Assembly (NCBI GenBank): GCA_027310565.1
Contig: DAIDAP010000037.1
Span: forward strand, 256,163 to 320,162
Source: Chloroflexota bacterium
Lineage (GTDB): Bacteria; Chloroflexota; Limnocylindria; P2-11E
Reading direction: 5' to 3'
Length of the DNA: 64,000 nucleotides
Part shown: piece after piece, positions 5,480-33,948 of the stretch
Layout of the letters: every line of letters begins with the position of its first letter
Numbering within the stretch: the first letter of the stretch is position 1
The notes under the pieces: generated by a model
The model's database searches: none
The model's input: the letters and a program-made list of their open reading frames with translations, nothing else
What the model was told of the DNA's origin: nothing
Translations under genes and position numbers: made by a program

Positions 5480-6448
5480 CTACTTCTTGTAGATCGCCGT
5501 CAGCCAGTCGCGGTACTTCGCGTTCTTCCCGCGGACCGAGTCGAAGTAGATCCTGGCGATCCGCCTCGCGATCGGCCCGACCTCGCCGGTGCCGACGGGC
5601 CGGTGGTCGATGGTCGTGACCGGAGCCACCTGGACCCCCGTGCCGCAGAGGAACGCCTCGTCGGCGAGGTACAGCTCGGTGCGGTCGATGCGCCGGATCT
5701 CGACGGGGATCTTCTCGTCGGCGGCGATGCGCAGGATGTTCGAGCGGACGATGCCCTCGAGGATGTTGTCGCTCGCGGGCGGCGTCACCAGCGCTCCGCC
5801 GCGGACGAGGAAGAGGTTCGCGGCGCTCCCCTCGGAAACGTGCCCGTCGTCGGTGAGGACGATCGCCTCGTTGAACCCGGCCTGCTCGGCCTCGGTCTTC
5901 GACAGCGCGGGGTTCACGTAGGAGCCGGTGATCTTGCCGCGAGCCGGGATGGCGTTGTCGTCGACGCGCCGCCAGGACGAGACGTGGCAGGAGATCCCAC
6001 CCTCGATCGGGACGTAGTTGCCGAACGGGACCGCGAACATGGTGAAGGCGTCCTCGAGGTCATGGAGTCGCACGCCGATGAGCTCGCTGGCCTTGTAGGC
6101 GATGGGCCGGAGGTAAGTGTCTTCGCGGTAGCCACACCGGCGAAGCAGCTCGATGGCGATGTCGATGAGGTCTTCGACGGAGTGCTGGAGGGAGATGCGC
6201 ATGATCCGGCAGGAGCCGTGGAGCCGGGTGAAATGCTCGCGGAAATGGAGGCCGTAGAGCTGCTGGTCGTCCGCGCTCCAGTACGCCCGGATGCCCTCGA
6301 AGACGCCCGTGCCGTAGTTGAAGGCGTGGGTCATGACGCTGATCTTCGCGTCGCGGATCGGCACGAACGCGCCGTTCAGGTACGCCCAGGCGGAATCGGG
6401 CGCGGCGCCCTTGGGCAGCTTCGCGGGCCGGCTCAGTTCCTGGACCAT
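5480..6448 (-). CDS. ilvE: Branched-chain amino acid aminotransferase
   Basis: Fold-type IV PLP enzyme with motifs typical of IlvE (FEGIRAY, KITGSYVN, LFLVRGGALVTP, EAFLCGTGVQVAPV). Start ATG at 6448 (MVQELS) has an upstream GGAG; the longer ORF start at 6535 is unlikely. Confidence 0.85.
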   Translation of the reverse strand: MVQELSRPAKLPKGAAPDSAWAYLNGAFVPIRDAKISVMTHAFNYGTGVFEGIRAYWSADDQQLYGLHFREHFTRLHGSCRIMRISLQHSVEDLIDIAIELLRRCGYREDTYLRPIAYKASELIGVRLHDLEDAFTMFAVPFGNYVPIEGGISCHVSSWRRVDDNAIPARGKITGSYVNPALSKTEAEQAGFNEAIVLTDDGHVSEGSAANLFLVRGGALVTPPASDNILEGIVRSNILRIAADEKIPVEIRRIDRTELYLADEAFLCGTGVQVAPVTTIDHRPVGTGEVGPIARRIARIYFDSVRGKNAKYRDWLTAIYKK

Positions 6449-6566
6449 GCTGCGTCTCCTCATCCGGTCGCCGTCGGCGAACCTGTCCGGCCGACTGCAC
6501 GTCCCCGCGCCGACCTCGTTCTCGCATTGTGACACGGCGCCGGCCGGGCCCGGGCTTGCCTGACGT

Positions 6567-6599
6567 GGTCAGACCGCTAGCATCCCGGCTGGTCAGACC
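6567..6599. promoter_or_regulatory. Two copies of the palindromic operator TGGTCAGACC (FadR-subfamily GntR type) between divergent ilvE and the CaCA gene
   Basis: gTGGTCAGACCg at 6567-6576 and cTGGTCAGACCg at 6590-6599. Palindrome GGTC-A-GACC. The same motif recurs at four other intergenic sites in this window (see findings). Confidence 0.6.
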
Positions 6600-6710
6600 G
6601 GCGTGCGTCCGTTCGCGAGCAAGGCAAAAGGAGTCCGTGGTGGTGTTGGCGATCAACTGGCTGCGCGCACGCTCCCGCAGGACCGGCTCCGCGCCCGCCG
6701 GCGACGGCGG

Positions 6711-7784
6711 GTGACCCCCCTCGACCTCGGCCTCATCGCCGGCGCGTTCGTCCTCATCCTCGTCGGAGCCGAGGTCTTCACCAACGGCGTCGAGTGGCTC
6801 GGGATCATGCTGAACATGACGGAGGGCGCGACCGGCAGCATCCTCGCCGCGTTCGGCACCGCGACGCCGGAGACGCTCATCCCGGTCGTCGCGATCCTGT
6901 TCACGCGGTCCGCAGACGCGGCCGAGATCGGCGTCGGCGCGATCCTCGGCGCGCCGTTCATGCTGGGCACGCTGGTCATGCTGCTCATCGGCGCGACTGC
7001 CTTCCTGCTGCGCGGGCGGCGCGGGCGCGACACGCTGCAGGTCGACGCCGCGCACGCGACGCGGGACATGGGCTTCTTCCTGGTCCTGTACACGCTCGCG
7101 CTCGCGCTCGCGCTGCTGCCGGCCGGGGTCCGGTCCGTGAAGGGGATCGTCGGCTGGGTCTTCCTGCCCGCGTACGTGCTGTACCTCTTCCTCGTGCTCC
7201 GGACACCGCGGAGGAGCCATGCGGACCTCGAGGAGCAGGCCGAGGAGCGCGCGGCGTTCAGCGCGCTGACGTTCGCGACGTATCTGCGCCGCATCGGGCT
7301 CGCCGTGGCCCCGGCGCGCCCGCCGCTCTGGCTGGTCCTGGCGCAGACGCTCATCTCGTTCGGCGCGATCGTGCTCGGCGCCAAGTTCTTCGCCTCGTTC
7401 GTCGAGGACTTCTCGAACGCGATGGGGTTCAACACGCTGCTCGTGGCGCTGGTGCTCGCGCCGCTCGCCACGGAGCTGCCCGAGGCGGCGAACAGCCTCA
7501 TCTGGACGAAGGACGGCAAGGACGTCATCGCGCTCGGCAACGTGGCCGGCGCGATGGTCTTCCAGTCCACGATCCCGGTGACGATCGGCGTCCTGCTCAC
7601 GCCCTGGGAGATCGGGCGGTTCGGGACCGTCGCCGCCGTCTTCGCCCTGCTCTCCGGCGGCCTGATCTGGCTGCAGCTGCGCCTCCGGGCCCGTGAGAAC
7701 GCCCTCCCGGTCAGTGCGCTGATGCTTGGCGGCAGCCTCTACGTGGTGTTCATCGGATACGTGCTCTGGAGCGTCCTGGTGTAG
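6711..7784 (+). CDS. CaCA-family cation/Ca2+ exchanger-like membrane protein
   Basis: Two alpha-repeat motifs (GSILAAFGTATPE and GNVAGAMVFQSTIP) separated by a hydrophilic loop; about 10 TM. GTG 6711 is chosen because the Arg-rich N-terminus of the 6603 ORF is probably not translated. Confidence 0.65.
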   Translation: MTPLDLGLIAGAFVLILVGAEVFTNGVEWLGIMLNMTEGATGSILAAFGTATPETLIPVVAILFTRSADAAEIGVGAILGAPFMLGTLVMLLIGATAFLLRGRRGRDTLQVDAAHATRDMGFFLVLYTLALALALLPAGVRSVKGIVGWVFLPAYVLYLFLVLRTPRRSHADLEEQAEERAAFSALTFATYLRRIGLAVAPARPPLWLVLAQTLISFGAIVLGAKFFASFVEDFSNAMGFNTLLVALVLAPLATELPEAANSLIWTKDGKDVIALGNVAGAMVFQSTIPVTIGVLLTPWEIGRFGTVAAVFALLSGGLIWLQLRLRARENALPVSALMLGGSLYVVFIGYVLWSVLV

Positions 7785-8897: not shown

Positions 8898-8923
8898 CCG
8901 ACTGGCCTGTGGTGGACCGCGAG

Positions 8924-11613: not shown

Positions 11614-12647
11614 TGGACCTCCTCGCGATCCCCCGCCTCGTCTTCGAGTTCGCGGTGTACCTCCTCACGGTCCTGCCCGACCTGCTGCCGATCATCCTGG
11701 CGCTCGCGACGCCGCTCGCGCTCGGCGCGCTCTGCGGCGTGCTCAACGAGCGCTCCGGGGTCGTCAACATCGGGATCGAGGGCATGATGCTCATGTCCGC
11801 CTTCTTCGGGTACCTCACCGGTTTCGCGCTCCACCAGACCGTCGGCAGCGCGGTCGCGATCTGGCTCGGCATCGCCGTCGCGGTCGGCGTCGGCGCGCTC
11901 CTCGGGCTGCTGCACGCCTGGCTCTCCGTATCGGTGCGCGCCGATCAGATCATCGCGGGGACGATGATGAACATCGCGGCCCTGGGGGTCACCGGCTACC
12001 TCAACCGGCTCATCATCACCCCCTCCGGCCGCGGCGGCGCCGGGGTCATCCCGCCGTTCCGGATCCCGCCGGAGCTCGCCGACCTGCCGGTCGTGGGGCC
12101 GATCCTGGCGATGTTCCTCGACCAGGGGCCCATCGCGATGAGCGTGATCGTGTTCGTGCTGGTCCTCCAGTTCGGGCTGTTCCGGACCCGGTGGGGCCTT
12201 CGGACGCGCGCGGTAGGCGAGCACCCCAAGGCGGCCGACACGCTGGGGATCGACGTCTTCCGCCAGCGCTACCTCAACGTCATCCTCGGCGGCGCGCTCG
12301 CCGGGCTCGCCGGCGCGTTCCTCACGCTGGAGTCCACCGGCTCGTTCCAGAACGGGATGACCGGCGGCCGTGGCTTCATCGCGCTCGCGGCGATGATCTT
12401 CGGCCGCTGGACGCCGGTGGGCTCCTTCCTCGGGGCGCTCCTCTTCGGGACGGCGACGGCTTTCGGCGTCGTCGTGAGCGTGCGGCCGGCCGAGGGCGAC
12501 CTGGGCGTGATCTTGCGCTCGATCCCGACGTTCTGGTATGCCGCGCTGCCGTACCTGCTCACCGTGGTCATCCTCGCCGGGGTGGTCGGCCGCTCGGTCC
12601 CGCCGGCCGCCGACGGCGTCCCCTACGCGAAGGAGGGCAAAGCCTAA
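11613..12647 (+). CDS. ABC transporter permease (second of two)
   Basis: Polytopic membrane protein, paralogous to the preceding gene; ATGA-type coupling. Confidence 0.8.
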   Translation: MDLLAIPRLVFEFAVYLLTVLPDLLPIILALATPLALGALCGVLNERSGVVNIGIEGMMLMSAFFGYLTGFALHQTVGSAVAIWLGIAVAVGVGALLGLLHAWLSVSVRADQIIAGTMMNIAALGVTGYLNRLIITPSGRGGAGVIPPFRIPPELADLPVVGPILAMFLDQGPIAMSVIVFVLVLQFGLFRTRWGLRTRAVGEHPKAADTLGIDVFRQRYLNVILGGALAGLAGAFLTLESTGSFQNGMTGGRGFIALAAMIFGRWTPVGSFLGALLFGTATAFGVVVSVRPAEGDLGVILRSIPTFWYAALPYLLTVVILAGVVGRSVPPAADGVPYAKEGKA

Positions 12648-12677
12648 GCGCCTGCGGGATCGACAGGACGCCTGCGT

Positions 12678-12858
12678 CCGGTCAGACCATCCGAGGCACG
12701 CCCTCGTGGCCTACGAACCCCGTACCGGCGAGGAGCACGACAGACCTCTGACCACCCTCGGCGCGTCGTCGCCCAGGCGACGAACGGGTGCTGCTGTCCC
12801 CGTCTTGCACGGCGATATACCATCCCGCAAGGTCTGACCACCAGTCAGTCTGACCAGG
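12678..12858. promoter_or_regulatory. Three TGGTCAGACCA-type operator copies upstream of tctC
   Basis: cGGTCAGACCA at 12678-12689; GGTCTGACCA at 12831-12840 and aGTCTGACCA at 12849-12857 (reverse orientation of the same palindrome). They lie 27-50 nt upstream of the tctC start. Confidence 0.55.
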
Positions 12859-12884
12859 CGCGTCTCTAAAGAGAACCGAGGTGG

Positions 12885-13946
12885 ATGAAAGCGATGAGTC
12901 GTTCTGTAGCCCGCTCCCTCGCGCTGCTCGTGACCGTCACGCTGCTTGCCACCGGCTGTGCCAGTCCGGCGGCGAGCTCCCCGACGCCGTCGGCGGCAGG
13001 GTCGTCCGCGCCACCGGCCCCAACGGCCTCGGCCGCGCCGATTCTCACGCGCCCGGTCGAGTTCGTGATCAGCACCGGCCCCGGCGGCGGCTCCGACCTC
13101 TACGCGCGGCTGTGGACCGGGATCATGACGTCCCAGAAACTCGTCAACGTGCCCGTCGTTCCGGTGAACAAGCCGGGCGGCGCCGGGGCGATCGCCTTCC
13201 AGTACACCATCTCCAAGATCGGCGATCCCCACTACCTCATGGTGACGCTGAACAGCTTCTTCACCACGATCCTCGTGCAGAACCTGCCGTTCAAGTCGAG
13301 CGACTTCACCCCGATCGCGGTCTTGGCCAAAGACCCGTTCTTCCTGTGGGTGAACGCCGATAGCACGTGGAAGACGGCGCAGGACTTCATCGCCGCGGCC
13401 AAGGAGAAATCCATCACCGTCGCCGGCACGGGCTCCAAGCAGGAGGACGAGGTGATGTTCCGGCGCATCGAGAAGCTCGCCGGCACCAAACCCTTCAACT
13501 ACATCCCGTACGACGAGGGCAGCACCGTCGCGGCGTCCCTGGCGGGGCACGCGGGGGGAACCGAGGTCACGGTGAACAACCCCAGCGAGGGCCTCGGGCT
13601 GTGGCAGGCGTCACCGCCCAAGGTGCGGCCCATCTGCGCGTTCCTGCCCGATCCGCCCGCGGGCGCCTTCCAGGGCGTGCCCACGTGCAAGTCGCAGGGC
13701 CTCGACATCACCGACTACTTCAACCTGCGTTCAGTGGTCGGCCCGCCGGGCCTCAACGACGCCCAGATCGCGTACTGGGGTGACGTGTTCAAGAAGGTGA
13801 ACGACGCGAAGGAGTGGAAGGACTTCGTGACCCAGAACGTCCTCGTCGCCGACTTCAGGACCGGCGCGGACGCGAAGAAGCTCTTCGACGAGTACACCAA
13901 GCTGCACACCGACATCGCCATTCAGAACGGCTGGTACAACCCGTAA
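12885..13946 (+). CDS. tctC: Tripartite tricarboxylate transporter substrate-binding protein (TctC/Bug family), lipoprotein
   Basis: Lipobox LATGC. TctC-family core (VPVVPVNKPGGAGAIAFQY). A second in-frame ATG at 12894 has better RBS spacing. Confidence 0.8.
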   Translation: MKAMSRSVARSLALLVTVTLLATGCASPAASSPTPSAAGSSAPPAPTASAAPILTRPVEFVISTGPGGGSDLYARLWTGIMTSQKLVNVPVVPVNKPGGAGAIAFQYTISKIGDPHYLMVTLNSFFTTILVQNLPFKSSDFTPIAVLAKDPFFLWVNADSTWKTAQDFIAAAKEKSITVAGTGSKQEDEVMFRRIEKLAGTKPFNYIPYDEGSTVAASLAGHAGGTEVTVNNPSEGLGLWQASPPKVRPICAFLPDPPAGAFQGVPTCKSQGLDITDYFNLRSVVGPPGLNDAQIAYWGDVFKKVNDAKEWKDFVTQNVLVADFRTGADAKKLFDEYTKLHTDIAIQNGWYNP

Positions 13947-13950
13947 CCTC

Positions 13951-14436
13951 ATGCGTCCGTACCAGACGGCGACGGCGGTGATCTTCGTCTTGATTGCCGC
14001 CGTCGCCATGTTCGACTCGCGTGCCGGCGCGCTGCCCGATCCGACGGGCCTCGTTCCCGGCGGCCTGCGGGCGGGCTGGTTCCCGTTCTGGGCGGCCACG
14101 ATCGTCGCCCTCGCGGGCCTCGTGGCGACGGTCCGCGCCCTCACGACCGCCCAGCCCGCGGAGGGCGCCTTCACGGACCGCCGCCAGATCGTGGACCTCG
14201 CCAAGTTCGTCGTCCCGATGGCCCTCGTCGGGTGGCTCATGTCGCCCGGGTTGCTCGGGTTCTACATCGCGAGCGGGCTCTATCTCGGCTACTACGCCGG
14301 CGTCGTCGCGCGCTACCGCTGGTACTACGCGCTCGCCTCCGGCATCGTGATCCCCGTCCTCATCTACCTGTCGTTCGAGCTCGCTTTCAGCGCCCTGCTC
14401 CCGAAGAGCTTCCTCTATCCCACGCTGCCATTCTGA
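13951..14436 (+). CDS. tctB: Tripartite tricarboxylate transporter small membrane subunit TctB
   Basis: About 160 aa with 4 TM, immediately between tctC and tctA. Confidence 0.7.
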   Translation: MRPYQTATAVIFVLIAAVAMFDSRAGALPDPTGLVPGGLRAGWFPFWAATIVALAGLVATVRALTTAQPAEGAFTDRRQIVDLAKFVVPMALVGWLMSPGLLGFYIASGLYLGYYAGVVARYRWYYALASGIVIPVLIYLSFELAFSALLPKSFLYPTLPF

Positions 14437-14540
14437 TCGGAGGTCTCGTCTAGTGCCGTTCCAACTCGATCCCGCGATGAGACGGAATCCGCTCGAGCCG
14501 GTGGCCGCTGATCCCGAGCTCGCGGTGTCGGAGCACTAGA

Positions 14541-16082
14541 TTGGACGCCTTCGGCTCGCTGCTCGGCGGGTTCGGCACCGCGCTGCAACCGACCAACCTC
14601 GTGTTCCTGCTCGCCGGAGTCCTGCTCGGGCTCATCATCGGGGTCCTCCCCGGGCTCGGTGGGACCAGCGGCGTCGCCATCCTCCTGCCGATCAGTGTCT
14701 TCATCGCGCGGGACAACAGCGCCACGACGGCGATCATCTTCCTCGCCGGGATCTACTGGGGCGCGCTCTTCGGCGGGGTCATCACCTCGATCCTGTTCAA
14801 CATCCCGGGCGAGCCGTGGGCTGTGGCGCTCCTGTTCGACGGTTACCCCCTCGCCAGGCGCAGGGGCAAACCCGGGGTGGCGCTGGCGAGCTCGTTCGTC
14901 GCGTCGTGGGTGGGCGCGTTCTTCGCGACCATCCTGCTCACGTTCCTGGCGAAGACCATCGCCGACATCGCCCTCCAGTTCGGTCCAGCCGACCTGTTCG
15001 CCATCTTCGTCCTCTCGTTCGCGACGCTCATCGGTCTCGGCGCCGAATCGCCGATCAAGGCCGTCATGATGGTCGCTTTCGGGCTCCTCCTCGCGGCGGT
15101 CGGCTTCGACAGGATCACGGGCGAGCCGCGGCTCACGTTCGGGCAGGTCGAGCTGCTCAACGGCATCGGGTTCGTCCCGGTCACCATCGGGCTTTTCGGG
15201 ATCGGCGAGGTCATCGCCGCGAACGAGGAGGCCGCGATCGGCGCCGCCGGAGCCATCGCCGCGAAGGTCGGCCTCAAGGACCTGCTCGAGACGCTCGCCG
15301 CGCTGAAGCAGCGCTTCCTGCTCGTGGCGGCGAACGGCATCATCGGCTTCTTCTTCGGCAGCCTTCCCGGGCACGGCGCCACGGCCGGGTCGTTCCTCGG
15401 CTACGGCCTCGCGCGGCAGTGGTCGAAGAACAAGGAGGAGTTCGGGAAGGGCGAGATCTCCGGGATCATGGCGCCGCAGGCTGCCGCGGACGCGTCGGCG
15501 GTCGGCGCGATGGTGCCGTTGCTGTCCCTCGGCGTGCCGGGGTCGCCGACGGGCGCGGTCCTCATGGCCGGTCTCTTCATCTGGGGCTTGGTACCGGGAC
15601 CGCTGCTGTTCATCCAGCACCCCGAGTTCGTGTGGGGGTTCATCGCGAGCATATACGTCGGCCACTTCCTGACGTTCCTCATCACCCTCACGGCCGTACC
15701 GCTCCTCGCGCTCATCATGCGGGTGCCGCACGGGGTCCTCACACCGCTCATCATCATCATCTCGGTGATCGGCTCGTACACGCTGAACAACAGCATGCTC
15801 GACGTCGCCATCACGATCGTCGCCGGAGTCGTGGGCTACTGGCTGCGCAAGATGAAGTACCCGCTCGCCCCGCTCGTCGTGGCCGTCGTGCTCGGCAATG
15901 CGACGGAGGTGGAGCTCCGTAGGGCGCTCATCGGCAGCAGCGGGCAGTGGACCGTCTTCTTCACGAGCCCGGCGTCGGCGGTGTTCCTCGCGATCGCCGC
16001 CCTGCTCCTCGCGTGGCCGTTCATCGGCAAGGCGCTCCAGGTCCGACGCGTGTCCGCGGCCCCGCCCGCCGCCGCAAAATGA
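14541..16082 (+). CDS. tctA: Tripartite tricarboxylate transporter permease TctA
   Basis: 513-aa polytopic TctA-family protein (GLLIGVLPGLGGTSGVAILLP motifs). TTG start. Confidence 0.85.
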   Translation: MDAFGSLLGGFGTALQPTNLVFLLAGVLLGLIIGVLPGLGGTSGVAILLPISVFIARDNSATTAIIFLAGIYWGALFGGVITSILFNIPGEPWAVALLFDGYPLARRRGKPGVALASSFVASWVGAFFATILLTFLAKTIADIALQFGPADLFAIFVLSFATLIGLGAESPIKAVMMVAFGLLLAAVGFDRITGEPRLTFGQVELLNGIGFVPVTIGLFGIGEVIAANEEAAIGAAGAIAAKVGLKDLLETLAALKQRFLLVAANGIIGFFFGSLPGHGATAGSFLGYGLARQWSKNKEEFGKGEISGIMAPQAAADASAVGAMVPLLSLGVPGSPTGAVLMAGLFIWGLVPGPLLFIQHPEFVWGFIASIYVGHFLTFLITLTAVPLLALIMRVPHGVLTPLIIIISVIGSYTLNNSMLDVAITIVAGVVGYWLRKMKYPLAPLVVAVVLGNATEVELRRALIGSSGQWTVFFTSPASAVFLAIAALLLAWPFIGKALQVRRVSAAPPAAAK

Positions 16083-16165
16083 ACCCGATCGGGGTCGTCC
16101 TCGTGCGGTCGTGGAGCTCGGCCTCCGGAACGGCCTGGCATTCAGGAACGCCCGAGCGCCCACGT

Positions 16166-16194
16166 TTGACAACGTTCGCCACCGCCGATAGCCT
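16166..16194 (+). promoter_or_regulatory. Sigma70-like promoter (TTGACA-N17-TAGCCT) for the GntR/oxidoreductase operon
   Basis: -35 TTGACA at 16166-16171, a 17-bp spacer, and the -10-like TAGCCT at 16189-16194, immediately followed by the palindromic operator at 16204-16222. Confidence 0.45.
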
Positions 16195-16203
16195 CCGATT
16201 GAT

Positions 16204-16222
16204 TGGTCAGGCCACCTGACCA
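16204..16222. promoter_or_regulatory. Palindromic operator TGGTCAGG-CCA-CCTGACCA overlapping the predicted TSS (probable autoregulatory site)
   Basis: Perfect 8-bp inverted repeat built from the same TGGTCAG half-site as the other operator copies. Positioned between the -10 and the RBS AGGAGG (16226-16231). Confidence 0.55.
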
Positions 16223-16944
16223 GAGCAGGAGGCACTGGGGCCACGATCGAGCCGATCCGGCGCAGCAAGCTCTACCAGGGCATCGTCGAGCAGATCGAGG
16301 CACTCCTCGAGAAGGGCGAGCTCAGGCCAGGCGATCAGCTCCCGGCGGAGCGAACGCTGGCCGAGCAGCTCCAGGTCTCGCGTGCCTCGGTGCGGGAGGC
16401 GTTGCGCACCCTCGAGCTCCTGGGCGTCGTCGAGACGCGCGCGGGTGGCGGCACGTTCGTGCGCCGCGTGGCGCCGGACGACCTCATGCGCCCGCTCACG
16501 AGCCTCATCGCCCGCGGGCACTCGATCCCCGACGTCATCGAGTTCCGCGGGATCGTCGAGCCGGCGATCGCCGCGCTCGCCGCGAGGCGCATCGACGTCG
16601 CGCAGCTCGCGGAGCTGCGCGACCTCCTCGCCGCCCAGGCGCGCAAGGTCGACCAGAGCCAGCCGTACGTCGACGAGGACACCCGCTTCCACGAGGTCAT
16701 CGGCGAAGCCGCGGGCAACGAGCTGCTCACCACGATGCTCGGCGTGATCTGGGACGTCCTGCGCGCGTCGCGCGAGCAGTGGCTGCAGACGCATAGCCGC
16801 GCGCAGGCGTCGCTCGAGGCGCATCGCCGCATCTACGACGCTCTCGCGCGGCACGACGCCGAGGCCGCGCGGGCCGCGAGCGCCGAGCACATCCGCGCGG
16901 TCGGCGAAGGGATCCTGAAGCTGTTGGGAGGTCGGAATGGCTGA
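16216..16944 (+). CDS. GntR-family transcriptional regulator, FadR subfamily (N-terminal wHTH plus C-terminal FCD domain)
   Basis: wHTH ...LPAERTLAEQLQVSRASVREALRTLELLG is encoded upstream of the annotated 16390 GTG in the same open frame. FCD-type C-terminal domain. No canonical ATG/GTG/TTG exists between the in-frame stop at 16189 and the HTH, so the true start is unresolved (CTG 16216, ATC 16246, or a frameshift). Confidence 0.7.
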   Translation: MTRAGGTGATIEPIRRSKLYQGIVEQIEALLEKGELRPGDQLPAERTLAEQLQVSRASVREALRTLELLGVVETRAGGGTFVRRVAPDDLMRPLTSLIARGHSIPDVIEFRGIVEPAIAALAARRIDVAQLAELRDLLAAQARKVDQSQPYVDEDTRFHEVIGEAAGNELLTTMLGVIWDVLRASREQWLQTHSRAQASLEAHRRIYDALARHDAEAARAASAEHIRAVGEGILKLLGGRNG

Positions 16945-18040
16945 CGAGAAGTCGATCTCGGTGGAGGTCGTCTACCGGGGCATCTTCCAGAAGACGCTGG
17001 CGCAGCGCATCTGCCGCTCGATCGTCCTCGCGTCGCGCAAGAAAGGGCACACCGGCACCGCGTTCTCCCGCTACGGTGACTCGCCGGAGCGCAACGGCGT
17101 CCCGGCGAAGCAGTTCGCGATCGTCGCGGTCGACGAGATCGAGCTGGAGGCGTCGATGGCGAAGTACGAGCCGGCCGTCGTCGATATCTCGGTCGCCGTC
17201 GACGACACGCTCGTGAAGGGCGTCGAGTCGTGGGCCTGGTACGGACGGCAGCCCATCTGGAAGCCGATCCGCGAGGGCGGGACCCTGCTCGTCACGAGCG
17301 AGAAGACCCCGGGCGAGATCGTCGCGCAGTCCGACCGGACGCCGAAGCCCTACACGCTCGGGATCGTGCCCGGCGGCGCGTCGTTCGCCGGCCTGTGGGT
17401 TTACAAGGACGACCACACCGATTACCGCGTCCTGGGCGCGCTCGCGAAGGTCGCGCCGCGGTGGCTCCCGCTCGAGGCGGCGAAGCAGGCCGCCCTCGAC
17501 CTCGCGAAGGGCGACCGGTCGGCGGCGGCCTCCGTGCAGTACGGCTACGACGCGACCGTCCTGCGCCAGGTCGGGGCCGGTGAGGGCACCGACGGCCACG
17601 AGAAGCTCCAGTTCACCAAGCCCGGCTGGACGACCATGCGGCCGGGCATCGTCGTCGACGCGCGCAAGCCCGGCCAGCGCAATCCCCAGTACAAGAAGTA
17701 CACGGCCCGCACGCAGCGGCCGGTCGTGAACTTCGACACGTGCATCAAGTGCACGATGTGCTGGCTGGACTGCCCCGACGAGTGTTTCGAGGTGACGCCC
17801 GAGGGCCACTACGAGGTCGTCTACGAGGCGTGCATCGGCTGCGGCATCTGCGCGCAGGTCTGCCCCGTGAAGGACTGCATCGTCATGGTCGACGAGCTCA
17901 AGTTCGCCGACAACCGGGACAGGTGGCAGGACTGGAAGAAGGATCGCGGCGCGTACAACACGTGGTTCGAGAAGGTGAGCGGCGTCCCGGCCGACCCCAA
18001 GGCGGCCGCGCCGGCGTCAGCGGCGGGAGGTGATGACTAG
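16937..18040 (+). CDS. 2-oxoacid:ferredoxin oxidoreductase, fused gamma-delta subunit (PorG/PorD-like)
   Basis: N-terminal gamma-subunit fold plus a C-terminal 2x[4Fe-4S] ferredoxin (CIKCTMCWLDCP and CIGCGICAQVCP). The start overlaps the regulator stop by 8 nt. Confidence 0.8.
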   Translation: MADEKSISVEVVYRGIFQKTLAQRICRSIVLASRKKGHTGTAFSRYGDSPERNGVPAKQFAIVAVDEIELEASMAKYEPAVVDISVAVDDTLVKGVESWAWYGRQPIWKPIREGGTLLVTSEKTPGEIVAQSDRTPKPYTLGIVPGGASFAGLWVYKDDHTDYRVLGALAKVAPRWLPLEAAKQAALDLAKGDRSAAASVQYGYDATVLRQVGAGEGTDGHEKLQFTKPGWTTMRPGIVVDARKPGQRNPQYKKYTARTQRPVVNFDTCIKCTMCWLDCPDECFEVTPEGHYEVVYEACIGCGICAQVCPVKDCIVMVDELKFADNRDRWQDWKKDRGAYNTWFEKVSGVPADPKAAAPASAAGGDD

Positions 18041-19273
18041 ATGGTCGTCGACGTCAAGACCAGGGAGACCAGCGAGGTCGAGACCGAGCAGCTCGCGACG
18101 GGCTGCGAGGCGATCGCCGAGGCCATCCGCCTCGCCGACGTCGATGTCATGGCCGCGTACCCCATCCGCCCCTACGACGGCGTCATGCAGGCGGCCGCGA
18201 AGCTCATCGCGAACGGCAAGATGGACGTCGAGTACATCGTCGCCGACGGCGAGCACAGCCAGTTCGAGATCGTGAAGCACGCGTGCGCGGTCGGGTCGCG
18301 CGTGTTCGTCGGCTCCTCCGGCGTCGGCTGGTTCTACGCGTTCGAGGCGATCGCGGTGACCGCGGGCCTCCGCCTGCCGGTCGTCGCGATCTGCGGCAAC
18401 CGCGCGCTCGACGACCCGGGCGCCTTCGGGACCGAGCACAACGACTCGCTCGCGGTGCGCGACCTCGGCTGGCTGCTGCCCTGGGCCGAGACGGCGCAGG
18501 AAGCGCTCGACCTCGCGCTCATGGCCTGGCGCGTCGGCGAGGACAGGCGCGTCAGCCTCCCGGTCGCGATCGGGCTGGACGGCGCGTTCCTCACGCACTC
18601 GCAGCACATCGTGAAGATCCCGACCCAGGCCGCGGTGCAGCGGTTCCTGCCGAAGTTCGACCTCGGCGACCGCCTGCTCCACCCGGACAACCCGATCACG
18701 ATCGCCCCGCAGGTCGACCAGGACTGGCTCATGGAGATCCGCCGCCAGAACGACCACGCGATGCGGCAGGCGCTCGGCGTCATCCGCGAGGCGCACGCCG
18801 ACTTCAAGACGATCTTCGGCCGCGGCGGCGACAGCCCGTTCCTCGACGAGTTCATGACCGAGGACGCCGAGGTCGTCGTCATCGGCCAGGGCACGCTCTC
18901 GCTCCCGATGAAGGTCGCCATCCGCCGTCTGCGCAAGGAGGGCCACAAGGTCGGCCTCGTCCGCCTCAAGTGGTTCCGCCCGTTCCCGACGGAGGAGGTC
19001 GTCCGGAGCCTCGGCCGATTCAAGGCCATCGGCGTCGTCGACCGCGACTACTCGTTCGGATCGCCGTTCTACGGCGGCGTCCTCTACAACGAGATCCGCT
19101 CCGCGCTGTACTCGCAGGCATCGCGCCCGGCCATCGTCGGCTTCATCGCCGGCCTGGGCGGCCGCGAGATCGAGCAGCCCATGGCGACCGAGATCTTCGA
19201 GAAGACCGAAGCCGCCGCCCGGACCGGACTCCCCGCCGGGGACGTCTGCCACTGGATCGGCGTACGCGAGTAA
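18041..19273 (+). CDS. 2-oxoacid:ferredoxin oxidoreductase alpha subunit
   Basis: PorA/VorA-like sequence throughout; ATG one nt after the upstream stop. Confidence 0.85.
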   Translation: MVVDVKTRETSEVETEQLATGCEAIAEAIRLADVDVMAAYPIRPYDGVMQAAAKLIANGKMDVEYIVADGEHSQFEIVKHACAVGSRVFVGSSGVGWFYAFEAIAVTAGLRLPVVAICGNRALDDPGAFGTEHNDSLAVRDLGWLLPWAETAQEALDLALMAWRVGEDRRVSLPVAIGLDGAFLTHSQHIVKIPTQAAVQRFLPKFDLGDRLLHPDNPITIAPQVDQDWLMEIRRQNDHAMRQALGVIREAHADFKTIFGRGGDSPFLDEFMTEDAEVVVIGQGTLSLPMKVAIRRLRKEGHKVGLVRLKWFRPFPTEEVVRSLGRFKAIGVVDRDYSFGSPFYGGVLYNEIRSALYSQASRPAIVGFIAGLGGREIEQPMATEIFEKTEAAARTGLPAGDVCHWIGVRE

Positions 19274-19284
19274 GGAGGGACGAC

Positions 19285-20331
19285 GTGGCAATCGACACCG
19301 CACTCCCCCAGATCAAAGGCGTCAAGGACGTCCCGTACGAGGAGCTCTTCGTGTCGGGGCACCGCACCTGCCAGGGCTGCGAGTCAGCCCTCGTGATGCG
19401 GCACATGGTGAAGGCCTCGGGGCCGCGCACGATCGTGCTCGGCTCGACCGGCTGCATGTACGTCGCGAACACCACGTATTACACGACCCCCTGGGTGGTC
19501 CCGTGGATGCACACGCAGCTCGGCGCGTCGGGCTCGGCCGCGCTGGGCACAGCCGCCGGCCTCAAGGTGCTCATGCGCAAGGGCAAGCTGAAGAACGAGA
19601 AGATCAACGTCATCGCCTTCTGCGGCGACGGCGGCGGCGCCGACATGGGCCTCGGCGCCATCTCCGCGACGCTCACGCACAAGGAGTACGACTGCCTCGT
19701 GCTCCTGTATGACAACGAGTCGTACGCGAACACGGACATCCAGCTCTCGAGCATGACGCCGTACGGCGCGGTCACCACGTTCTCGCCGTCCGGTGAGAAG
19801 AAGCGGCTCATGCATACGCGCTGGAAGAAGAACGTCCCGGGCATGCTCGCCGCGGGCCACCCCGAGTCGCGCTACATCGCGGCCGGCTGTGCCGCGTACG
19901 CCGTGGATCTCATGAACAAGATCCGCAGGGCTCTCGAGCTCGGCGGGCCCACCTTCGTCCACACCCTCGACCCGTGCCCGAAGGGCTGGGACTACCACCC
20001 GCAATACAGCCAGGAGCTCGGGCACCTCGCGGTCGAGTGCGGTATCTGGCCGCTCTACGAGGTCGTGGACGGCGTCTGCAACCTCACCGGCCCGACCCGG
20101 CAGATCGCCGAGGGCCGCAAGAAGCGCAAGCCGGTCATCGAGTACCTGCGCCGGCAGGGCCGCTTCGCGCACTTCGTCGACGAGGACGTGGAGCACTTCC
20201 AGGCCGAGGTCGACAAGATGTGGACCGACTGGCTCATCCCCGGCGTCATCCCCTTCACCGTCCCGGCGAAGGACCAGGCGCTCCTCAAGATCGACAGGAA
20301 GCCGCTGCACGAGCAGACCAAGAGCGCGTAG
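19285..20331 (+). CDS. 2-oxoacid:ferredoxin oxidoreductase beta subunit (TPP-binding)
   Basis: TPP-binding motif GDGGGADMGLG and Cys ligands (CQGC...C) of the proximal cluster. GTG at 19285 follows the RBS AAGGAGGG. Confidence 0.85.
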   Translation: MAIDTALPQIKGVKDVPYEELFVSGHRTCQGCESALVMRHMVKASGPRTIVLGSTGCMYVANTTYYTTPWVVPWMHTQLGASGSAALGTAAGLKVLMRKGKLKNEKINVIAFCGDGGGADMGLGAISATLTHKEYDCLVLLYDNESYANTDIQLSSMTPYGAVTTFSPSGEKKRLMHTRWKKNVPGMLAAGHPESRYIAAGCAAYAVDLMNKIRRALELGGPTFVHTLDPCPKGWDYHPQYSQELGHLAVECGIWPLYEVVDGVCNLTGPTRQIAEGRKKRKPVIEYLRRQGRFAHFVDEDVEHFQAEVDKMWTDWLIPGVIPFTVPAKDQALLKIDRKPLHEQTKSA

Positions 20332-20387: not shown

Positions 20388-21752
20388 CTACGGAGTGATA
20401 ACGATCGGGGACAACGACGTACCCGTCACCGCGGGCGTGAGCGTATCGGTGACGGTCACGGTGTGCGTCCCTGTCGTGAGGAACGTAACGACGAAGTCAT
20501 GCACTCCCGCGTCCAACCCCGTGAACGTGTAGTCGGCAGGCAAGGTCGCCACTGGATCCGAGCTCGTGAAGCGCACCGTGCCGCGGTAGTCGGTCACCAC
20601 GTTGCCGAACACGTCACGGACAAGCACGTTCAGACCAAGGGGCACGCCCCGGGCACCGCCGCTGCCGATAACCCTGAAGGCGGAAGCCGGACCGCTAGTC
20701 ACGGTGATCGTGTCCGAGGTCCCCGTGACCGCCGCATCGAACGTGTCAGTCGCGATGATCGTGCCCGGGCCAGCGCGCGAGATGCCGAACGCACTCGTGA
20801 AGGTGTGCCTACCGCCGTCGGCGGCGGTGAACGTGTAGTAGGGCGGCACAAAGCCATAGGGGCTCGAGAGGGTGAAGCCGATCGTGCCGCGGTAGTCGCT
20901 CACCGCGTTGCCGAGGCTGTCCAGCGCGGTCACCGTCACGCTGAACCTTTCGCCCGCTGCGACCGTGCTCGGGCTCGCGACCACGCTGAGGCTCGCCGGG
21001 CCCACGGTGATCGAGGCGGCGCCCGAGATGGAGGCATCCAGAACGTCCGTGGCGGAGACCGTCTGCGCGCCTACCGAAACGAGCGTCACGCCGTTCGGCG
21101 GAGCGAAGGTATGCGTGCCGGCGTCTTGCGGGGTGAATGTGTAATCGTGAGGAAGCGTCGCGCCCGGGTCGGTGCTCGTGAAACGGATCCTGCCGCGGTA
21201 CAGGTCCGCGACGTTTCCGAACTGGTCTAGCACGGTGACTGTCACAGTCGTCGCTACGCCTGATCTTGATGCATCCACGACGACCCTGAATCCGAAAGCG
21301 GCCGACGTCGCCGTACCGCTCGGACCGGTCGGTCCGGTTGCGCCGGTGGGACCCGTTGCTCCCGGAGCGCCGGTTGGACCGGTGGGGCCAGTCAGGCCGG
21401 CGGCTCCGGTTGGACCAGTCGCGCCGGCGGCGCCGGTGGGACCGGTCGATCCGGCGGCGCCGGTCGCACCCGTCGCGCCGGTGTCACCCTTTTGCCCGAC
21501 CTGATTCCACGTGATCGCCCGCTCGTTCTTGCCGCACTCCTCGGCCGAGGCGACCAGGCGCAGCTGGCCACTGCGCCCGCCGTCGTCCTTCGGCTTGGCT
21601 GAGCTGTCCTTCTCGTTCTGCTGGACCTGGAAGCATGCGGTGATGACGCCGCCCGGGCCGGGGATCGTGCCGGCGGCGAAGACGCCGCCCGCACCTCCCA
21701 GGACGAAGGCGATGACCCCCACCAGCAGGTAGTGCGCGAACGGATTGCGCAT
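20388..21752 (-). CDS. Secreted/membrane-anchored collagen-like (Gly-X-Thr triple-helix repeat) protein with three Ig-like repeat domains
   Basis: ATG at 21752 ([13 protein letters not shown]...) is preceded by GGGAGGGAG. It has an N-terminal TM/signal, 19 uninterrupted G-X-Y triplets ([13 protein letters not shown]...GPSG), then three ~95-aa repeats ([23 protein letters not shown]...). The first 138 codons of the 592-aa ORF are an artefact. Confidence 0.75.
21300..21480. repeat. Tandem 9-bp (GGNCCGGTN)n repeats encoding the collagen-like Gly-X-Thr tract
   Basis: Direct reading of near-identical 9-mers across ~170 bp. Confidence 0.8.
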
Positions 21753-21807
21753 GCGTTCTCCCTCCCACCCCGACGACTCGACAGGCCCCCGCCGGCGCGC
21801 CCGCGCG

Positions 21808-21950
21808 ATGCTACGCCAGACGCCGTACGGCGCGGTCACGACGTTCCCTCCGTCAGGCGAGAAGCGCCGGCTCAGGGCGCTCGAGCAGGGCGGGCCCACC
21901 AGTACCTGCGCCGGCAGGGCCGCTTCGCACACTTCATCGACGCGGCACAT
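21808..21950 (+). pseudogene. Degenerate, internally deleted partial copy of the 3' part of the oxidoreductase beta gene
   Basis: Three blocks match the beta gene at 19757-19808, 19925-19952 and 20139-20180 at about 85-90% identity, concatenated with the intervening ~120- and ~185-bp segments missing. There is no intact reading frame. Confidence 0.7.
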
Positions 21951-32902: not shown

Positions 32903-33157
32903 CTAGAATGCCAGGGTGATGTCGGCGTCGCTCGCGTAGGACAGGAACGCCGCCGCGCCGCAGATGTCCTGGCTGCCCTCGATGAAATCGTCGGCCTCGT
33001 AGCCGAAGACCTTCATCGTCATCGCGCAGGGGAACAGCTTCACGCCGGCCTCGACCGCGAAGTCCGTGAGCTCGCCGATCGGCGCTACCTCGAGCGACCC
33101 GTCTGCGCACTCCTTGATACGGATACGCGTACGTGCGCAGATGGTCAGACCGCACAT
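32903..33157 (-). CDS. DsrE/DsrF-like (COG2210) sulfur-relay family protein, apparently N-terminally truncated
   Basis: C-terminal signature KLFPCAMTMKVFGYEADDFIEGSQDICGAAAFLSYASDADITLAF. Only 84 aa are present; the N-terminal Rossmann-like half is absent. Confidence 0.45.
   Translation of the reverse strand: MCGLTICARTRIRIKECADGSLEVAPIGELTDFAVEAGVKLFPCAMTMKVFGYEADDFIEGSQDICGAAAFLSYASDADITLAF
33142..33151. promoter_or_regulatory. TGGTCAGACC operator copy 30 nt upstream of the TauE/SafE gene, within the 5' end of the divergent DsrE-like gene
   Basis: aTGGTCAGACCg; same palindrome as at 6.5, 12.7-12.8 and 16.2 kb. Confidence 0.5.
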
Positions 33158-33180: not shown

Positions 33181-33948
33181 ATGACCGAGGCGCTGGTCGT
33201 CCTGGCCGCGCTGGTGGCGTCGTTCCTATCCGGCCTCCTGGGGATCGGCGGCGGGATCGTCCTGGCCCCGCTGCTCCTCTACGGCCCCGGCCTGGTGGGC
33301 GAGCCCGACCTCGCCGTGAAGACCGTCACCGGGCTCACCGTGGTCCAGGCCCTCGCCGGCAGCCTCCTGGGCTCCTGGCGGCACCGCTCGTACGGGCACG
33401 TGTCGCGCGAGCTCGTGGTCGCGATGGGGCCGGCGAGCGCGCTCGGCGCCCTCGCGGGCGCGCTCGTCTCGGGCGGCAGCTCGGACCGCGTCCTGCTGGC
33501 GGTCTTCGCGGCCATCTCGTTCGCCGGCGCCCTGCTCCTGCTGCTCCCGCCACCGCAGCCACCGCCGACCGGCGACGGCCACAACGTCCCGCTGGCCGTG
33601 GCGATCGCGAGCGGCCTCGGCGTGCTGGGCGGCATGGTGGGAGTGGCCGGCATCGCGTCCATCATCGCCGCTCTCGTGTACGTGCTGCGCGTCCCGGCCC
33701 GCGTCGCGATCGGCACGAGCCTGGGCGTGGGCCTGTTCGGCGCCGTCGCCGCGCTCGTGGGGAAGGCGGCGACCGCGCAGCTCGACCTCGGGCTCGGGCT
33801 CCTCGTTCTCGTCGCCGCGGTGGCCGGCTCCCCCGCCGGCGCCTGGCTGAGCATGCGCTCGCGCCCGCGGATCCTGCTCGTGACGCTCGCGGTCATCGTG
33901 GCCGCGAGCGGAGCGCGCATCGGCTGGAGCGCGGCGTTCGGGGTCTGA
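33181..33948 (+). CDS. TauE/SafE (TSUP, DUF81) family sulfite/anion exporter
   Basis: Characteristic paired glycine-rich TM motifs (LSGLLGIGGGIVLAPLL...; GVLGGMVGVAG). ATG 33181. Confidence 0.7.
   Translation: MTEALVVLAALVASFLSGLLGIGGGIVLAPLLLYGPGLVGEPDLAVKTVTGLTVVQALAGSLLGSWRHRSYGHVSRELVVAMGPASALGALAGALVSGGSSDRVLLAVFAAISFAGALLLLLPPPQPPPTGDGHNVPLAVAIASGLGVLGGMVGVAGIASIIAALVYVLRVPARVAIGTSLGVGLFGAVAALVGKAATAQLDLGLGLLVLVAAVAGSPAGAWLSMRSRPRILLVTLAVIVAASGARIGWSAAFGV

What the first reader, a model, noticed from the sequence alone, without database searches (positions are those of the whole stretch)
16204..16222. FadR-type palindrome TGGTCAGACCA defines a predicted regulon across the window
The palindrome, or its variant TGGTCAGG-CCA-CCTGACCA, occurs five times, all intergenic and promoter-proximal:
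- 6567-6599 (two copies), between divergent ilvE and the CaCA exchanger
- 12678-12858 (three copies), upstream of tctCBA
- 16204-16222, overlapping the TSS of the GntR gene itself
- 33142-33151, upstream of the TauE/SafE exporter
TGGTCnGACCA is the classic E. coli FadR box, and the local regulator has a FadR C-terminal (FCD) domain. Predicted targets:
- a BCAA aminotransferase
- a 2-oxoacid:ferredoxin oxidoreductase
- a tricarboxylate transporter
- a Ca2+/cation exchanger
- a sulfite exporter
This would be a coherent 2-oxoacid/amino-acid catabolic module plus some unexpected members.
Basis: partly seen in the sequence, partly recalled or inferred. Interest (0 to 1): 0.7.

Follow-up and report, generated by a model that had tools for sequence, protein, structure and literature searches.

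The report
LldR/PdhR-type repressor operators, local regulon
The repeated palindrome is the binding site of the neighbouring GntR/FadR-family repressor, an ordinary and well-known kind of switch, here controlling its own operon (an oxalate-oxidoreductase-like enzyme) and carboxylate/cation transporters in an uncultured soil Chloroflexota bacterium.

Summary
The exact palindrome TGGTCAGACCA is absent from the window. Six one-mismatch copies occur (0.55 expected) and the core GGTCWGACC occurs five times (0.70 expected). All lie in 5' non-coding DNA at the stated places.

In all 30 orthologous loci from Candidatus Limnocylindria MAGs, the GntR+FCD gene is preceded by a 19-bp element, TGGTCWGACCACCTGACCA, just downstream of a -10 box. 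It is always followed by the same three-subunit 2-oxoacid:ferredoxin oxidoreductase genes. The box equals the proven Corynebacterium LldR operator (TGGTCTGACCA), and the FadR DNA-contact residues are present.

Target status:
- Conserved: the regulator-oxidoreductase operon and tctCBA-CaCA. CaCA is the fourth gene of the tct operon in relatives.
- Ambiguous: ilvE.
- Not conserved: the TauE site is missing in the nearest relative.

Extras:
- The oxidoreductase carries the oxalate-oxidoreductase-specific YPIRP motif.
- The regulator gene uses a conserved CTG start in 24 of the 30 relatives (25 counting L002).
- In this strain that codon is GGG, so the regulator may be poorly made or dead.

The parts
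16204..16222 (.). Composite autoregulatory operator TGGTCAGGCCACCTGACCA. It combines the short dyad TGGTC-W-GACCA, here with one A>G mismatch, and an extra CTGACCA half-site.
   Evidence: Read. The same 19-mer family is found 43-128 nt upstream of the regulator match in 30 of 30 orthologous loci. The window's exact variant is also in L019 and L021.
16166..16194 (+). Predicted promoter of the regulator operon: TTGACA (16166-16171), 17 nt, TAGCCT (16189-16194). The operator starts 10 nt after the -10 box.
   Evidence: Coordinates checked. The same TTGAC-17-TAnnnT-operator layout is visible in the relatives. The promoter itself is inferred; the strict consensus scan found none.
16237..16944 (+). 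GntR wHTH + FCD regulator (LldR/PdhR/NanR-like). The codon at the orthologous start position is GGG, and there is no in-frame ATG/GTG/TTG before 16390.
   Evidence: Pfam, NCBIfam, homologues, start-codon analysis. Two independent contigs are identical.
16937..20331 (+). Three-subunit 2-oxoacid:ferredoxin oxidoreductase: gamma-delta fusion 16937-18040, alpha 18041-19273, beta 19285-20331. It is co-transcribed with the regulator.
   Evidence: Pfam. The best NCBIfam model for all three subunits is oxalate oxidoreductase, below cut-off. The best PDB match is 5c4i. Synteny holds in all loci.
6566..6576 (.). Operator O1 (TGGTCAGACCG), inside the spacer of the predicted promoter TTGCCT (6556-6561), 16 nt, TAGCAT (6578-6583).
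   Evidence: A homologous site is present in L003.
6590..6600 (.). Operator O2 (TGGTCAGACCG), 7 nt after the -10 box, at the predicted transcription start.
   Evidence: This TSS-proximal site is the one kept in L002, L003, L005, L009, L012, L017, L025 and L029 upstream of tctC.
6637..6714 (+). 25-codon relic ORF, the tail of an ancestral tctA. It has an AAGGAG Shine-Dalgarno, and its stop overlaps the CaCA start (GTGA).
   Evidence: It resembles TctA C-termini of relatives, and L001 shows the same GTGA junction.
6711..7784 (+). CaCA (Na/Ca-exchanger family) gene. Its start at GTG 6711 was set by comparison with relatives.
   Evidence: Pfam, N-terminus. In relatives it follows tctA with a 0-12 nt gap.
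12830..12856 (.). tctC-proximal operator AGGTCTGACCA (12830-12840) plus a degenerate copy or half-site CAGTCTGACCA (12846-12856). They start 7 nt after the -10-like TACCAT (12818-12823).
12679..12689 (.). Distal box CGGTCAGACCA, 32 nt after the ABC permease stop and about 200 nt upstream of tctC. Its role is uncertain.
   Evidence: Similar GGTCWGACCATCC boxes in relatives overlap the start codon of a Na+/H+ exchanger gene that is absent here.
12885..16082 (+). tctCBA tripartite tricarboxylate-type transporter genes.
   Evidence: Pfam.
33142..33152 (.). Box TGGTCAGACCG between TauE (+) and a DsrE-fragment / molybdo-oxidoreductase operon (-). It is specific to this lineage.
   Evidence: It is absent at the aligned place in the closest TauE locus, L083.
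33181..33948 (+). TauE/SafE family exporter, a possible target.
   Evidence: Pfam.
32903..33157 (-). 84-codon ORF matching only positions 97-155 of the 156-position DrsE_2 profile. It is the first ORF of the minus-strand operon with NrfD/Fe-S (31217-32749) and the molybdopterin oxidoreductase (28374-31202).
5480..6535 (-). ilvE (class IV aminotransferase), divergent from the O1/O2 promoter. Its regulation is undecided.
   Evidence: Pfam. The divergent ilvE/box arrangement is conserved.

Best explanation
The boxes are operators of the GntR/FCD repressor encoded at 16237-16944, a FadR-subfamily protein of the LldR/PdhR/NanR type.

Proposed mechanism:
- A repressor dimer recognises the short dyad TGGTC-W-GACCA.
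- At its own promoter a third half-site (CCTGACCA) probably recruits a second dimer.
- The boxes sit in the -35/-10 spacer or from about +1 to +25, so the bound repressor blocks initiation.
- A small carboxylate that binds the metal-containing FCD domain releases the repressor.
- Release turns on (i) the regulator's own operon with an oxalate-oxidoreductase-like 2-oxoacid:ferredoxin oxidoreductase and (ii) the TctCBA carboxylate transporter and its operon partner, the CaCA cation exchanger.

Shown here: motif enrichment, position, and strict co-conservation with the regulator.

Inferred: binding itself, repression, and the effector. Pyruvate, lactate or oxalate-like acids are candidates.
For: Motif statistics:
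- 6 one-mismatch boxes against 0.55 expected, and 5 cores against 0.70 expected, all in 5' non-coding DNA.
- In the 369 kb of orthologous loci the core occurs 47 times against 4.3 expected. Apart from the autoregulatory sites, 17 of 18 lie in 5' regions.

Link to the regulator:
- All 30 orthologous regulator genes (59-86% identity, different species-level MAGs) carry the 19-bp element while the flanks diverge.
- Regulators 39-44% identical in Dehalococcoidia have GGTCTGACC 28-67 nt upstream and the same oxidoreductase operon.
- An actinobacterial homologue next to lutB has two boxes.
- This is the only GntR-family gene in the window.

Match to known regulators:
- The box equals the footprinted, ITC-measured LldR operator.
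- The recognition-helix region VSRASVREAL matches LldR VSRSSLREAL and PdhR VSRPSLREAI.
- Equivalents of FadR Arg35, Arg45, Arg49 and Gly66 are present (residue list from PMC2602784).
- Asp/His/His/His positions in the FCD domain are invariant among 12 orthologues.

Dyad evidence:
- The central W varies A/T without any change elsewhere. This preserves the short dyad but breaks the long one.
- At Na+/H+ exchanger start codons in relatives, the same A/T swap causes a Gln/Leu change. The constraint is therefore on the DNA, not on the protein.
Against: - No binding or expression data exist.
- The perfect consensus box is absent from this window.
- The window's own operator carries an A>G change in the short dyad.
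- The regulator gene in this strain lacks any usable canonical or CTG start at the orthologous position, so repression may be weak or lost here.
- The TauE site is not conserved.
- The effector is unknown.
- The protein scores below the curated cut-offs of LldR, PdhR and NanR.
Confidence: 0.8

Rival explanations
1. The boxes are real operators, but in this particular strain the system is vestigial or leaky. The regulator gene has lost its start codon (GGG where relatives have CTG/TTG/GTG), so little or no DNA-binding protein is made and the targets are constitutively expressed.
For: - The codon at the orthologous start is GGG, and the next in-frame canonical start (16390) would delete the whole wHTH.
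- JGI's gene caller produced only the 184-aa FCD product, P0035.
- The sequence is identical in two further independent assemblies.
Against: - The reading frame is intact for 234 codons and 86% identical to the closest relative.
- A strong AGGAGG precedes in-frame near-cognate ACG (16243) and ATC (16246). L004 has ACG at the start position.
- The operators are still intact.
Confidence: 0.2
2. The boxes are bound by a different FadR/LldR-type paralogue encoded elsewhere in the genome, and the adjacent regulator recognises something else.
For: TGGTN3ACCA-type boxes are shared by several FadR-subfamily regulators. The rest of the genome could not be searched.
Against: - Box and regulator gene travel together in 30 of 30 loci, and in distant Dehalococcoidia homologues.
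- The box sits at the regulator's own promoter, as expected for autoregulation.
- No other GntR gene is in the window.
Confidence: 0.07
3. The 19-nt element upstream of the regulator acts as an RNA hairpin in the 5' leader (stability or attenuation element) rather than as a protein operator.
For: The window's version folds as an 8-bp stem of -12.6 kcal/mol (z = -3.9), and the A-variant as -13.1 kcal/mol.
Against: - Nine loci have T at position 6 with no compensating change, which weakens the stem (-9.4 kcal/mol, z = -1.5).
- The other sites are 11-bp palindromes that cannot form a hairpin.
- The box matches a proven protein operator.
Confidence: 0.03
4. The copies are chance palindromes of a GC-rich genome, or parts of a short dispersed repeat with no regulatory role.
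For: At two mismatches or fewer the count (8) equals the chance expectation (8.3).
Against: - At one mismatch or fewer the count is 6 against 0.55 expected, and no shuffle reaches it.
- No similarity extends beyond the box.
- All copies are in 5' regions.
- Positions are conserved across species.
Confidence: 0.01

Closest known systems
LldR of Corynebacterium glutamicum (FadR-subfamily GntR repressor of the cgl2917-lldD operon)
   Same: - Identical core operator TGGTCTGACCA, placed across the transcription start (-4 to +13).
- An adjacent weaker second site, so that two dimers bind.
- Same wHTH recognition sequence, and an FCD domain with a metal site.
   Different: - Only about 62 bits in a whole-protein comparison with 2di3, and below the NCBIfam LldR cut-off (125 against 311).
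- No lactate permease or dehydrogenase genes at the locus. It controls an oxidoreductase of the oxalate-oxidoreductase type and transporters.
PdhR of Escherichia coli (pyruvate-sensing repressor, first gene of pdhR-aceEF-lpdA)
   Same: - The regulator is the first gene of, and autoregulates, an operon for a 2-oxoacid-oxidising enzyme (PMC10572922).
- The best PDB match for the DNA-binding domain is PdhR 5kvr.
- Many database entries for the orthologues are auto-named PdhR.
   Different: - Below the PdhR equivalog cut-off (116 against 330).
- The enzyme is a ferredoxin-dependent three-subunit oxidoreductase, not the pyruvate dehydrogenase complex.
- From my own memory, not checked here: the E. 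coli PdhR box is ATTGGTnnnACCAAT, which has different flanks and centre.
FadR of Escherichia coli
   Same: Consensus TGGTN3ACCA. The DNA-contact residues Arg35, Arg45, Arg49 and Gly66 have equivalents.
   Different: - 24% identity, and 30 bits against a cut-off of 189.
- The C-terminal domain is FCD (PF07729), not the acyl-CoA-binding FadR_C.
- No fatty-acid genes are among the targets.
Oxalate oxidoreductase of Moorella thermoacetica (for the regulated enzyme)
   Same: - Three-subunit (abc)2-type layout with a fused gamma-delta subunit.
- It is the best NCBIfam and PDB match for the subunits.
- The alpha subunit has the YPIRP motif (Arg31), described as unique to this enzyme, plus Arg109 and Phe117 (PMC5020499).
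   Different: - Asp116 of the 'bait and switch' loop is Ala in the window, in all 22 Limnocylindria loci whose alpha-subunit region is held, and in 5 loci of more distant Chloroflexota homologues, 4 of them Dehalococcoidia.
- All three subunits score below the equivalog cut-offs.
- The substrate is untested.

Membership tests
GntR family, FadR subfamily (FCD type) | N-terminal GntR winged helix-turn-helix (PF00392) | tested here: met
   76 bits against a cut-off of 27, residues 11-74.
GntR family, FadR subfamily (FCD type) | All-helical C-terminal FCD effector domain (PF07729) with Asp/His metal ligands | tested here: met
   106 bits against a cut-off of 24.3. D163, H167, H211 and H233 (alignment numbering) are invariant in 12 orthologues. 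Metal binding itself was not tested.
GntR family, FadR subfamily (FCD type) | DNA-contact residues equivalent to FadR Arg35, Arg45, Arg49 and Gly66 | tested here: met
The residue list comes from PMC2602784.
GntR family, FadR subfamily (FCD type) | Operator of the form TNGTNNNACNA / TGGTN3ACCA near the regulator's own promoter | tested here: met
   TGGTCWGACCA is present in 30 of 30 orthologous loci, with a one-mismatch version in the window. Consensus.
GntR family, FadR subfamily (FCD type) | Ligand-dependent release from DNA | not testable with these tools
   Needs EMSA or ITC with purified protein.
LldR (NCBIfam NF007741 equivalog) | Score above the curated cut-off | tested here: not met
   125 bits against a cut-off of 311.
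LldR (NCBIfam NF007741 equivalog) | Association with lactate utilisation genes | tested here: not met
   No lld or lut genes are in the window or in the 30 loci. Only the distant Planobispora homologue sits next to lutB.
PdhR (NCBIfam NF007001 equivalog) | Score above the curated cut-off | tested here: not met
   116 bits against a cut-off of 330.
PdhR (NCBIfam NF007001 equivalog) | First gene of an autoregulated operon for a pyruvate-oxidising enzyme | tested here: inconclusive
   The operon layout is met: the regulator comes first, the stop and start overlap, and the operator is at the promoter. The enzyme's substrate is unknown and looks more oxalate-like.
FadR sensu stricto (NF003444) | Score above the curated cut-off; acyl-CoA-binding C-terminal domain | tested here: not met
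   30 bits against a cut-off of 189. The C-terminal domain is FCD.
Oxalate oxidoreductase (for the regulated enzyme) | Three subunits with a fused gamma-delta subunit; YPIRP (Arg31) replacing the YPITP of pyruvate enzymes | tested here: met
   The delta-like subunit aligns over profile positions 15-316 of 316. YPIRP is in the window and in all 27 related loci whose alpha-subunit region is held. The motif's meaning comes from PMC5020499.
Oxalate oxidoreductase (for the regulated enzyme) | Asp116 of the plug/switch loop | tested here: not met
   The loop reads PGAF instead of PGDF, strictly conserved.
Oxalate oxidoreductase (for the regulated enzyme) | NCBIfam equivalog cut-offs for alpha, beta and delta | tested here: not met
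   392 against 500, 349 against 590 and 105 against 230 bits.

The most novel reading that the evidence does not exclude
The regulon is a dedicated module for using oxalate, or a closely related small dicarboxylate or 2-oxoacid, in soil Chloroflexota.

Its proposed components:
- A carboxylate-sensing LldR-like repressor.
- A new YPIRP-type, Asp116-less relative of oxalate oxidoreductase.
- A TctCBA transporter.
- A Ca2+/cation exchanger, which would dispose of the cation imported with, or liberated from, calcium oxalate.

The repressor's level would be held low by a conserved CUG start codon. This would be the first regulator tied to an oxalate-oxidoreductase-type enzyme, and a clue to what Limnocylindria eat.
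Probability: 0.2. Interest if true: 0.6.

Novelty: new member of a known kind. Interest (0 to 1): 0.35.

Why it matters
- It gives a well-supported regulon for Candidatus Limnocylindria, a widespread soil and freshwater Chloroflexota class with no cultured model. The regulon comes with operator, regulator and promoter layout.
- It links an uncharacterised, strictly conserved relative of oxalate oxidoreductase to carboxylate uptake and cation export.
- The operator and repressor could be tested directly in vitro and used to find the enzyme's substrate.
- As a type of system it is textbook: an autoregulated FadR-subfamily repressor with a TGGTN3ACCA box.

Tried and rejected
- The exact palindrome was searched and is absent.
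- The strict sigma-70 consensus scan found no promoters in 6400-16400. The promoters are therefore read by eye and by conservation only.
- TauE site conservation, two attempts:
  - The metagenome scan returned only two 60%-identical loci with no box and no synteny.
  - The protein search plus contig look-ups gave one informative relative, L083, which lacks the box.
- The 141-codon ORF 32757-33182 (-) was rejected as Arg-rich junk. The 84-codon frame is a DsrE fragment.
- A mobile-element or dispersed-repeat reading was rejected because no similarity extends beyond the 11 bp.
- The RNA hairpin reading was rejected for lack of compensation.
- The idea that box 12679 is a relic of a Na+/H+ exchanger start rests only on the shared GGTCAGACCATCC and is not claimed.
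- Papers on the oxalate oxidoreductase active site (PMC4720323, PMC4498597) are not held.
- No paper links this enzyme to a GntR regulator, or Limnocylindria to ferredoxin oxidoreductases.

Full report
**Observation**

What occurs is six copies with one mismatch, against 0.55 expected from dinucleotide shuffles, with none of 100 shuffles reaching six:

| Position | Sequence |
|---|---|
| 6566 | TGGTCAGACCG |
| 6590 | TGGTCAGACCG |
| 12679 | CGGTCAGACCA |
| 12830 | AGGTCTGACCA |
| 16204 | TGGTCAGGCCA |
| 33142 | TGGTCAGACCG |

- The invariant 9-bp core GGTCWGACC occurs five times against 0.70 expected.
- Allowing two mismatches adds only 12846 (next to 12830) and one probable chance hit inside a gene at 20627.
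- My own gene calls cover about 88% of the window. None of the sites lies in a confidently called gene.

**Genes**

| Coordinates | Gene |
|---|---|
| 5480-6535 (-) | Class IV aminotransferase (ilvE) |
| start corrected to GTG 6711, to 7784 | CaCA exchanger |
| 7878-12647 | BMP-family ABC transporter, with its own TAGAAT box and no site |
| 12885-16082 | tctCBA |
| ends 16944 | GntR wHTH + FCD regulator |
| 16937-20331 | Three oxidoreductase genes, overlapping the regulator's stop |
| 33181-33948 | TauE |

The ORF opposite TauE is only the C-terminal third of a DsrE-like protein. It heads a minus-strand operon with an NrfD/Fe-S protein and a molybdopterin oxidoreductase.

**Comparative test**

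The regulator's closest relatives come from uncultured Chloroflexota, Candidatus Limnocylindria. A scan of one genome per species returned 30 orthologous loci with 59-86% protein identity.

- In every one of them a 19-bp element lies 43-128 nt upstream of the regulator match. The variants are:

| Variant | Loci |
|---|---|
| TGGTCAGACCACCTGACCA | 16 |
| TGGTCTGACCACCTGACCA | 9 |
| ...CCG ending | 2 |
| The window's A>G variant | 2 |
| Other | 1 |

- The surrounding sequence is not conserved.
- The element always follows a TTGAC-17-TAnnnT promoter-like pair by 1-11 nt. In the window this is TTGACA 16166, TAGCCT 16189, operator from 16204.
- Every locus that extends far enough has the same ferredoxin-domain, alpha and beta oxidoreductase genes after the regulator.
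- In the 369 kb of these loci the core occurs 47 times against 4.3 expected.
- Of the 18 copies that are not the autoregulatory site, 17 are in 5' regions.
- Homologues only 39-44% identical, in Dehalococcoidia, also have GGTCTGACC 28-67 nt upstream and the same oxidoreductase operon. An actinobacterial homologue next to lutB has two copies.
- The window holds no other GntR-family gene.

This is about as strong a link between a box and a regulator as sequence alone can give.

**Which dyad matters**

The 19-mer contains two overlapping dyads: a short one, TGGTC-W-GACCA, and a long one, TGGTCAG-N5-CTGACCA.

- Position 6 is A in 21 loci and T in 9, with no change at its long-dyad partner. The short dyad is therefore the constrained unit, and the extra CTGACCA is a third half-site.
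- Folded as RNA, the T variant loses most of its advantage over shuffles (z = -1.5 against -3.9 to -4.6). That argues against a leader hairpin.
- In four relatives a box overlaps codons 3-5 of a Na+/H+ exchanger gene (ATG GAT GGT CWG ACC). There the same A/T swap changes Gln to Leu. This again shows a constraint on DNA rather than on protein.

**Regulon**

tctCBA and CaCA:
- In relatives the divergent ilvE / tctC intergenic region carries one or two boxes (L002, L003, L005, L009, L012, L017, L025, L029).
- The window's ilvE-CaCA spacer is homologous to it. It shares the conserved CGCATTGTGACAC near ilvE, a TTGCnn-16-TAG(C/G)AT promoter-like pair, a box in the spacer and a box just after the -10.
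- In relatives CaCA follows tctA with a gap of 0-12 nt, so it is the fourth gene of the tct operon.
- In the window a 25-codon ORF (6637-6714) resembles TctA C-termini and keeps the GTGA overlap with the CaCA start. The ancestral tctCBA was apparently deleted here, which fused the regulated promoter to CaCA.
- A more divergent tctCBA set sits at 12885-16082, 53-78% identical to the relatives' genes. It has its own box or boxes 7 nt after a TACCAT.
- CaCA is therefore not an odd member but a conserved partner.

ilvE:
- It shares the spacer, but the box positions fit the + strand promoter. I cannot decide its status.

TauE:
- The TauE box could not be confirmed.
- The closest TauE locus (76% protein identity, about 77% DNA identity across the junction) has GCATAGACC at the aligned position. 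It also has a divergent ArsR-TusA-DsrE operon that has been deleted in the window.
- More distant TauE loci have no box.
- Given about 0.7 chance cores per 64 kb and about 12% non-coding DNA, a chance core in non-coding DNA is expected about 0.08 times. The site is probably functional but is specific to this lineage, and its target strand is open.

**Family placement**

- The regulator has the GntR wHTH and the FCD domain.
- Its best curated models are NanR, LldR and PdhR, all far below their cut-offs. FadR proper scores 30 bits.
- The best solved structures are NanR 6on4, PdhR 9jpj/5kvr and LldR 2di3.
- The recognition region VSRASVREAL matches LldR and PdhR.
- The four FadR DNA-contact residues have equivalents.
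- The literature gives TGGTN3ACCA for FadR and TNGTNNNACNA for the subfamily.
- For C. glutamicum LldR it gives the footprinted site TtgTGGTCTGACCAtgA at -4 to +13, with a weaker adjacent site so that two dimers bind.
- The same box was predicted for M. smegmatis MSMEG_0596.
- PdhR is the first gene of the operon it represses and is released by pyruvate. The operon design here is the same.

The system works like LldR/PdhR but is not an orthologue of either.

**The regulated enzyme**

- All three subunits hit the oxalate oxidoreductase models best, below cut-off.
- The alpha subunit scores 353 bits to M. thermoacetica oxalate oxidoreductase 5c4i, against 219 bits to a pyruvate enzyme.
- It has YPIRP, described as unique to oxalate oxidoreductase, where Arg31 binds the second carboxylate (PMC5020499). 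It also has Arg109 and Phe117.
- Asp116 of the switch loop is Ala.
- YPIRP and NRALDDPGAFG are strictly conserved in the window and in all 27 related loci that include the region, 4 of them Dehalococcoidia.
- The substrate is therefore likely a small anionic 2-oxoacid or dicarboxylate, not necessarily oxalate.
- This makes an oxalate-type module (enzyme, carboxylate transporter, Ca2+ exchanger) a possible reading, which I rate at about 0.2.

**Start codon**

- In 24 of the 30 relatives the codon 5-9 nt after a GGAGG, immediately before the conserved (A/T)(V/T)IEPIRR, is CTG. L002 has a CTG one codon earlier, three have TTG, one GTG and one ACG.
- In at least 17 loci no canonical start exists in frame upstream.
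- Some database orthologues have Met at exactly this place.
- This looks like a conserved CUG initiation codon for an autoregulated repressor at the head of an operon.
- In the window the codon is GGG, and the next canonical in-frame start would remove the DNA-binding domain. The public annotation is the 184-aa FCD-only product.
- Two independent assemblies are identical over this region.
- In this strain the regulator is either started at a near-cognate codon (ACG 16243 or ATC 16246) or is non-functional.

**Verdict**

It is undecided for ilvE and unsupported by conservation for TauE.

The system is a new member of a well-known kind. Its interest is modest. It is raised somewhat by the oxalate-oxidoreductase-like enzyme and the conserved CUG start.

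Noticed in passing
window 16227-16246; L001-L030 just upstream of the regulator match: The regulator gene appears to use a conserved CTG start codon in 24 of the 30 relatives (25 counting L002), 5-9 nt after GGAGG, often with no canonical in-frame alternative. In the window that codon is GGG, identical in two other assemblies, which leaves only near-cognate ACG/ATC or a truncated FCD-only product.
   Followed up: partly
window 6637-6714: A 25-codon ORF with a strong Shine-Dalgarno resembles the C-terminus of TctA of relatives. Its stop overlaps the CaCA start (GTGA). This looks like the scar of a deletion that removed the ancestral tctCBA and fused the regulated promoter to CaCA.
   Followed up: partly
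window 18041-19273 (alpha subunit; YPIRP from 18158): The oxidoreductase alpha subunit has the YPIRP motif reported as unique to oxalate oxidoreductase, but Ala in place of Asp116 (PGAF). Both features are strictly conserved in the window and 27 Limnocylindria and other Chloroflexota (mostly Dehalococcoidia) loci. This is a distinct, uncharacterised subfamily.
   Followed up: partly
window 32903-33157 (-) and 33100-33181: Only the C-terminal third of a DsrE-like gene is present. The closest relative (L083) has ArsR-TusA-DsrE divergent from TauE, with a different palindrome-rich spacer. The window seems to have lost that regulator and carries a GntR-type box instead.
   Followed up: partly
L014 3760, L019 5006, L020 3982, L027 921: In relatives a box overlaps codons 3-5 of a Na+/H+ exchanger gene (ATG GAT GGTCWGACC) that is divergent from a second BMP-type ABC transporter. 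The A/T swap at the box centre changes Gln to Leu. The window's 33142 box has the same ATG-NNN-GGTCTGACC layout on the minus strand.
   Followed up: partly
window 6523-6535: CGCATTGTGACAC at the 5' end of ilvE is conserved at the DNA level in the window and in L002, L003, L005 and L009 (minus its last base in L009), while neighbouring sequence varies. Its function is unknown; it could be a promoter element or the start of ilvE.
   Followed up: no
window 7812-7849: Upstream of the BMP-family ABC operon there is a TAGAAT -10-like box and a perfect 8-bp G+C stem-loop (GCGGGCGG-N7-CCGCCCGC) without a T tract. No GntR-type box is present, so this operon probably has separate control.
   Followed up: no
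window 20388-22166 (-): An ORF with collagen-like Gly-X-Y repeats (Pfam Collagen) explains a run of GGTNNNACC strings at 21345-21488 that are unrelated to the operator.
   Followed up: no
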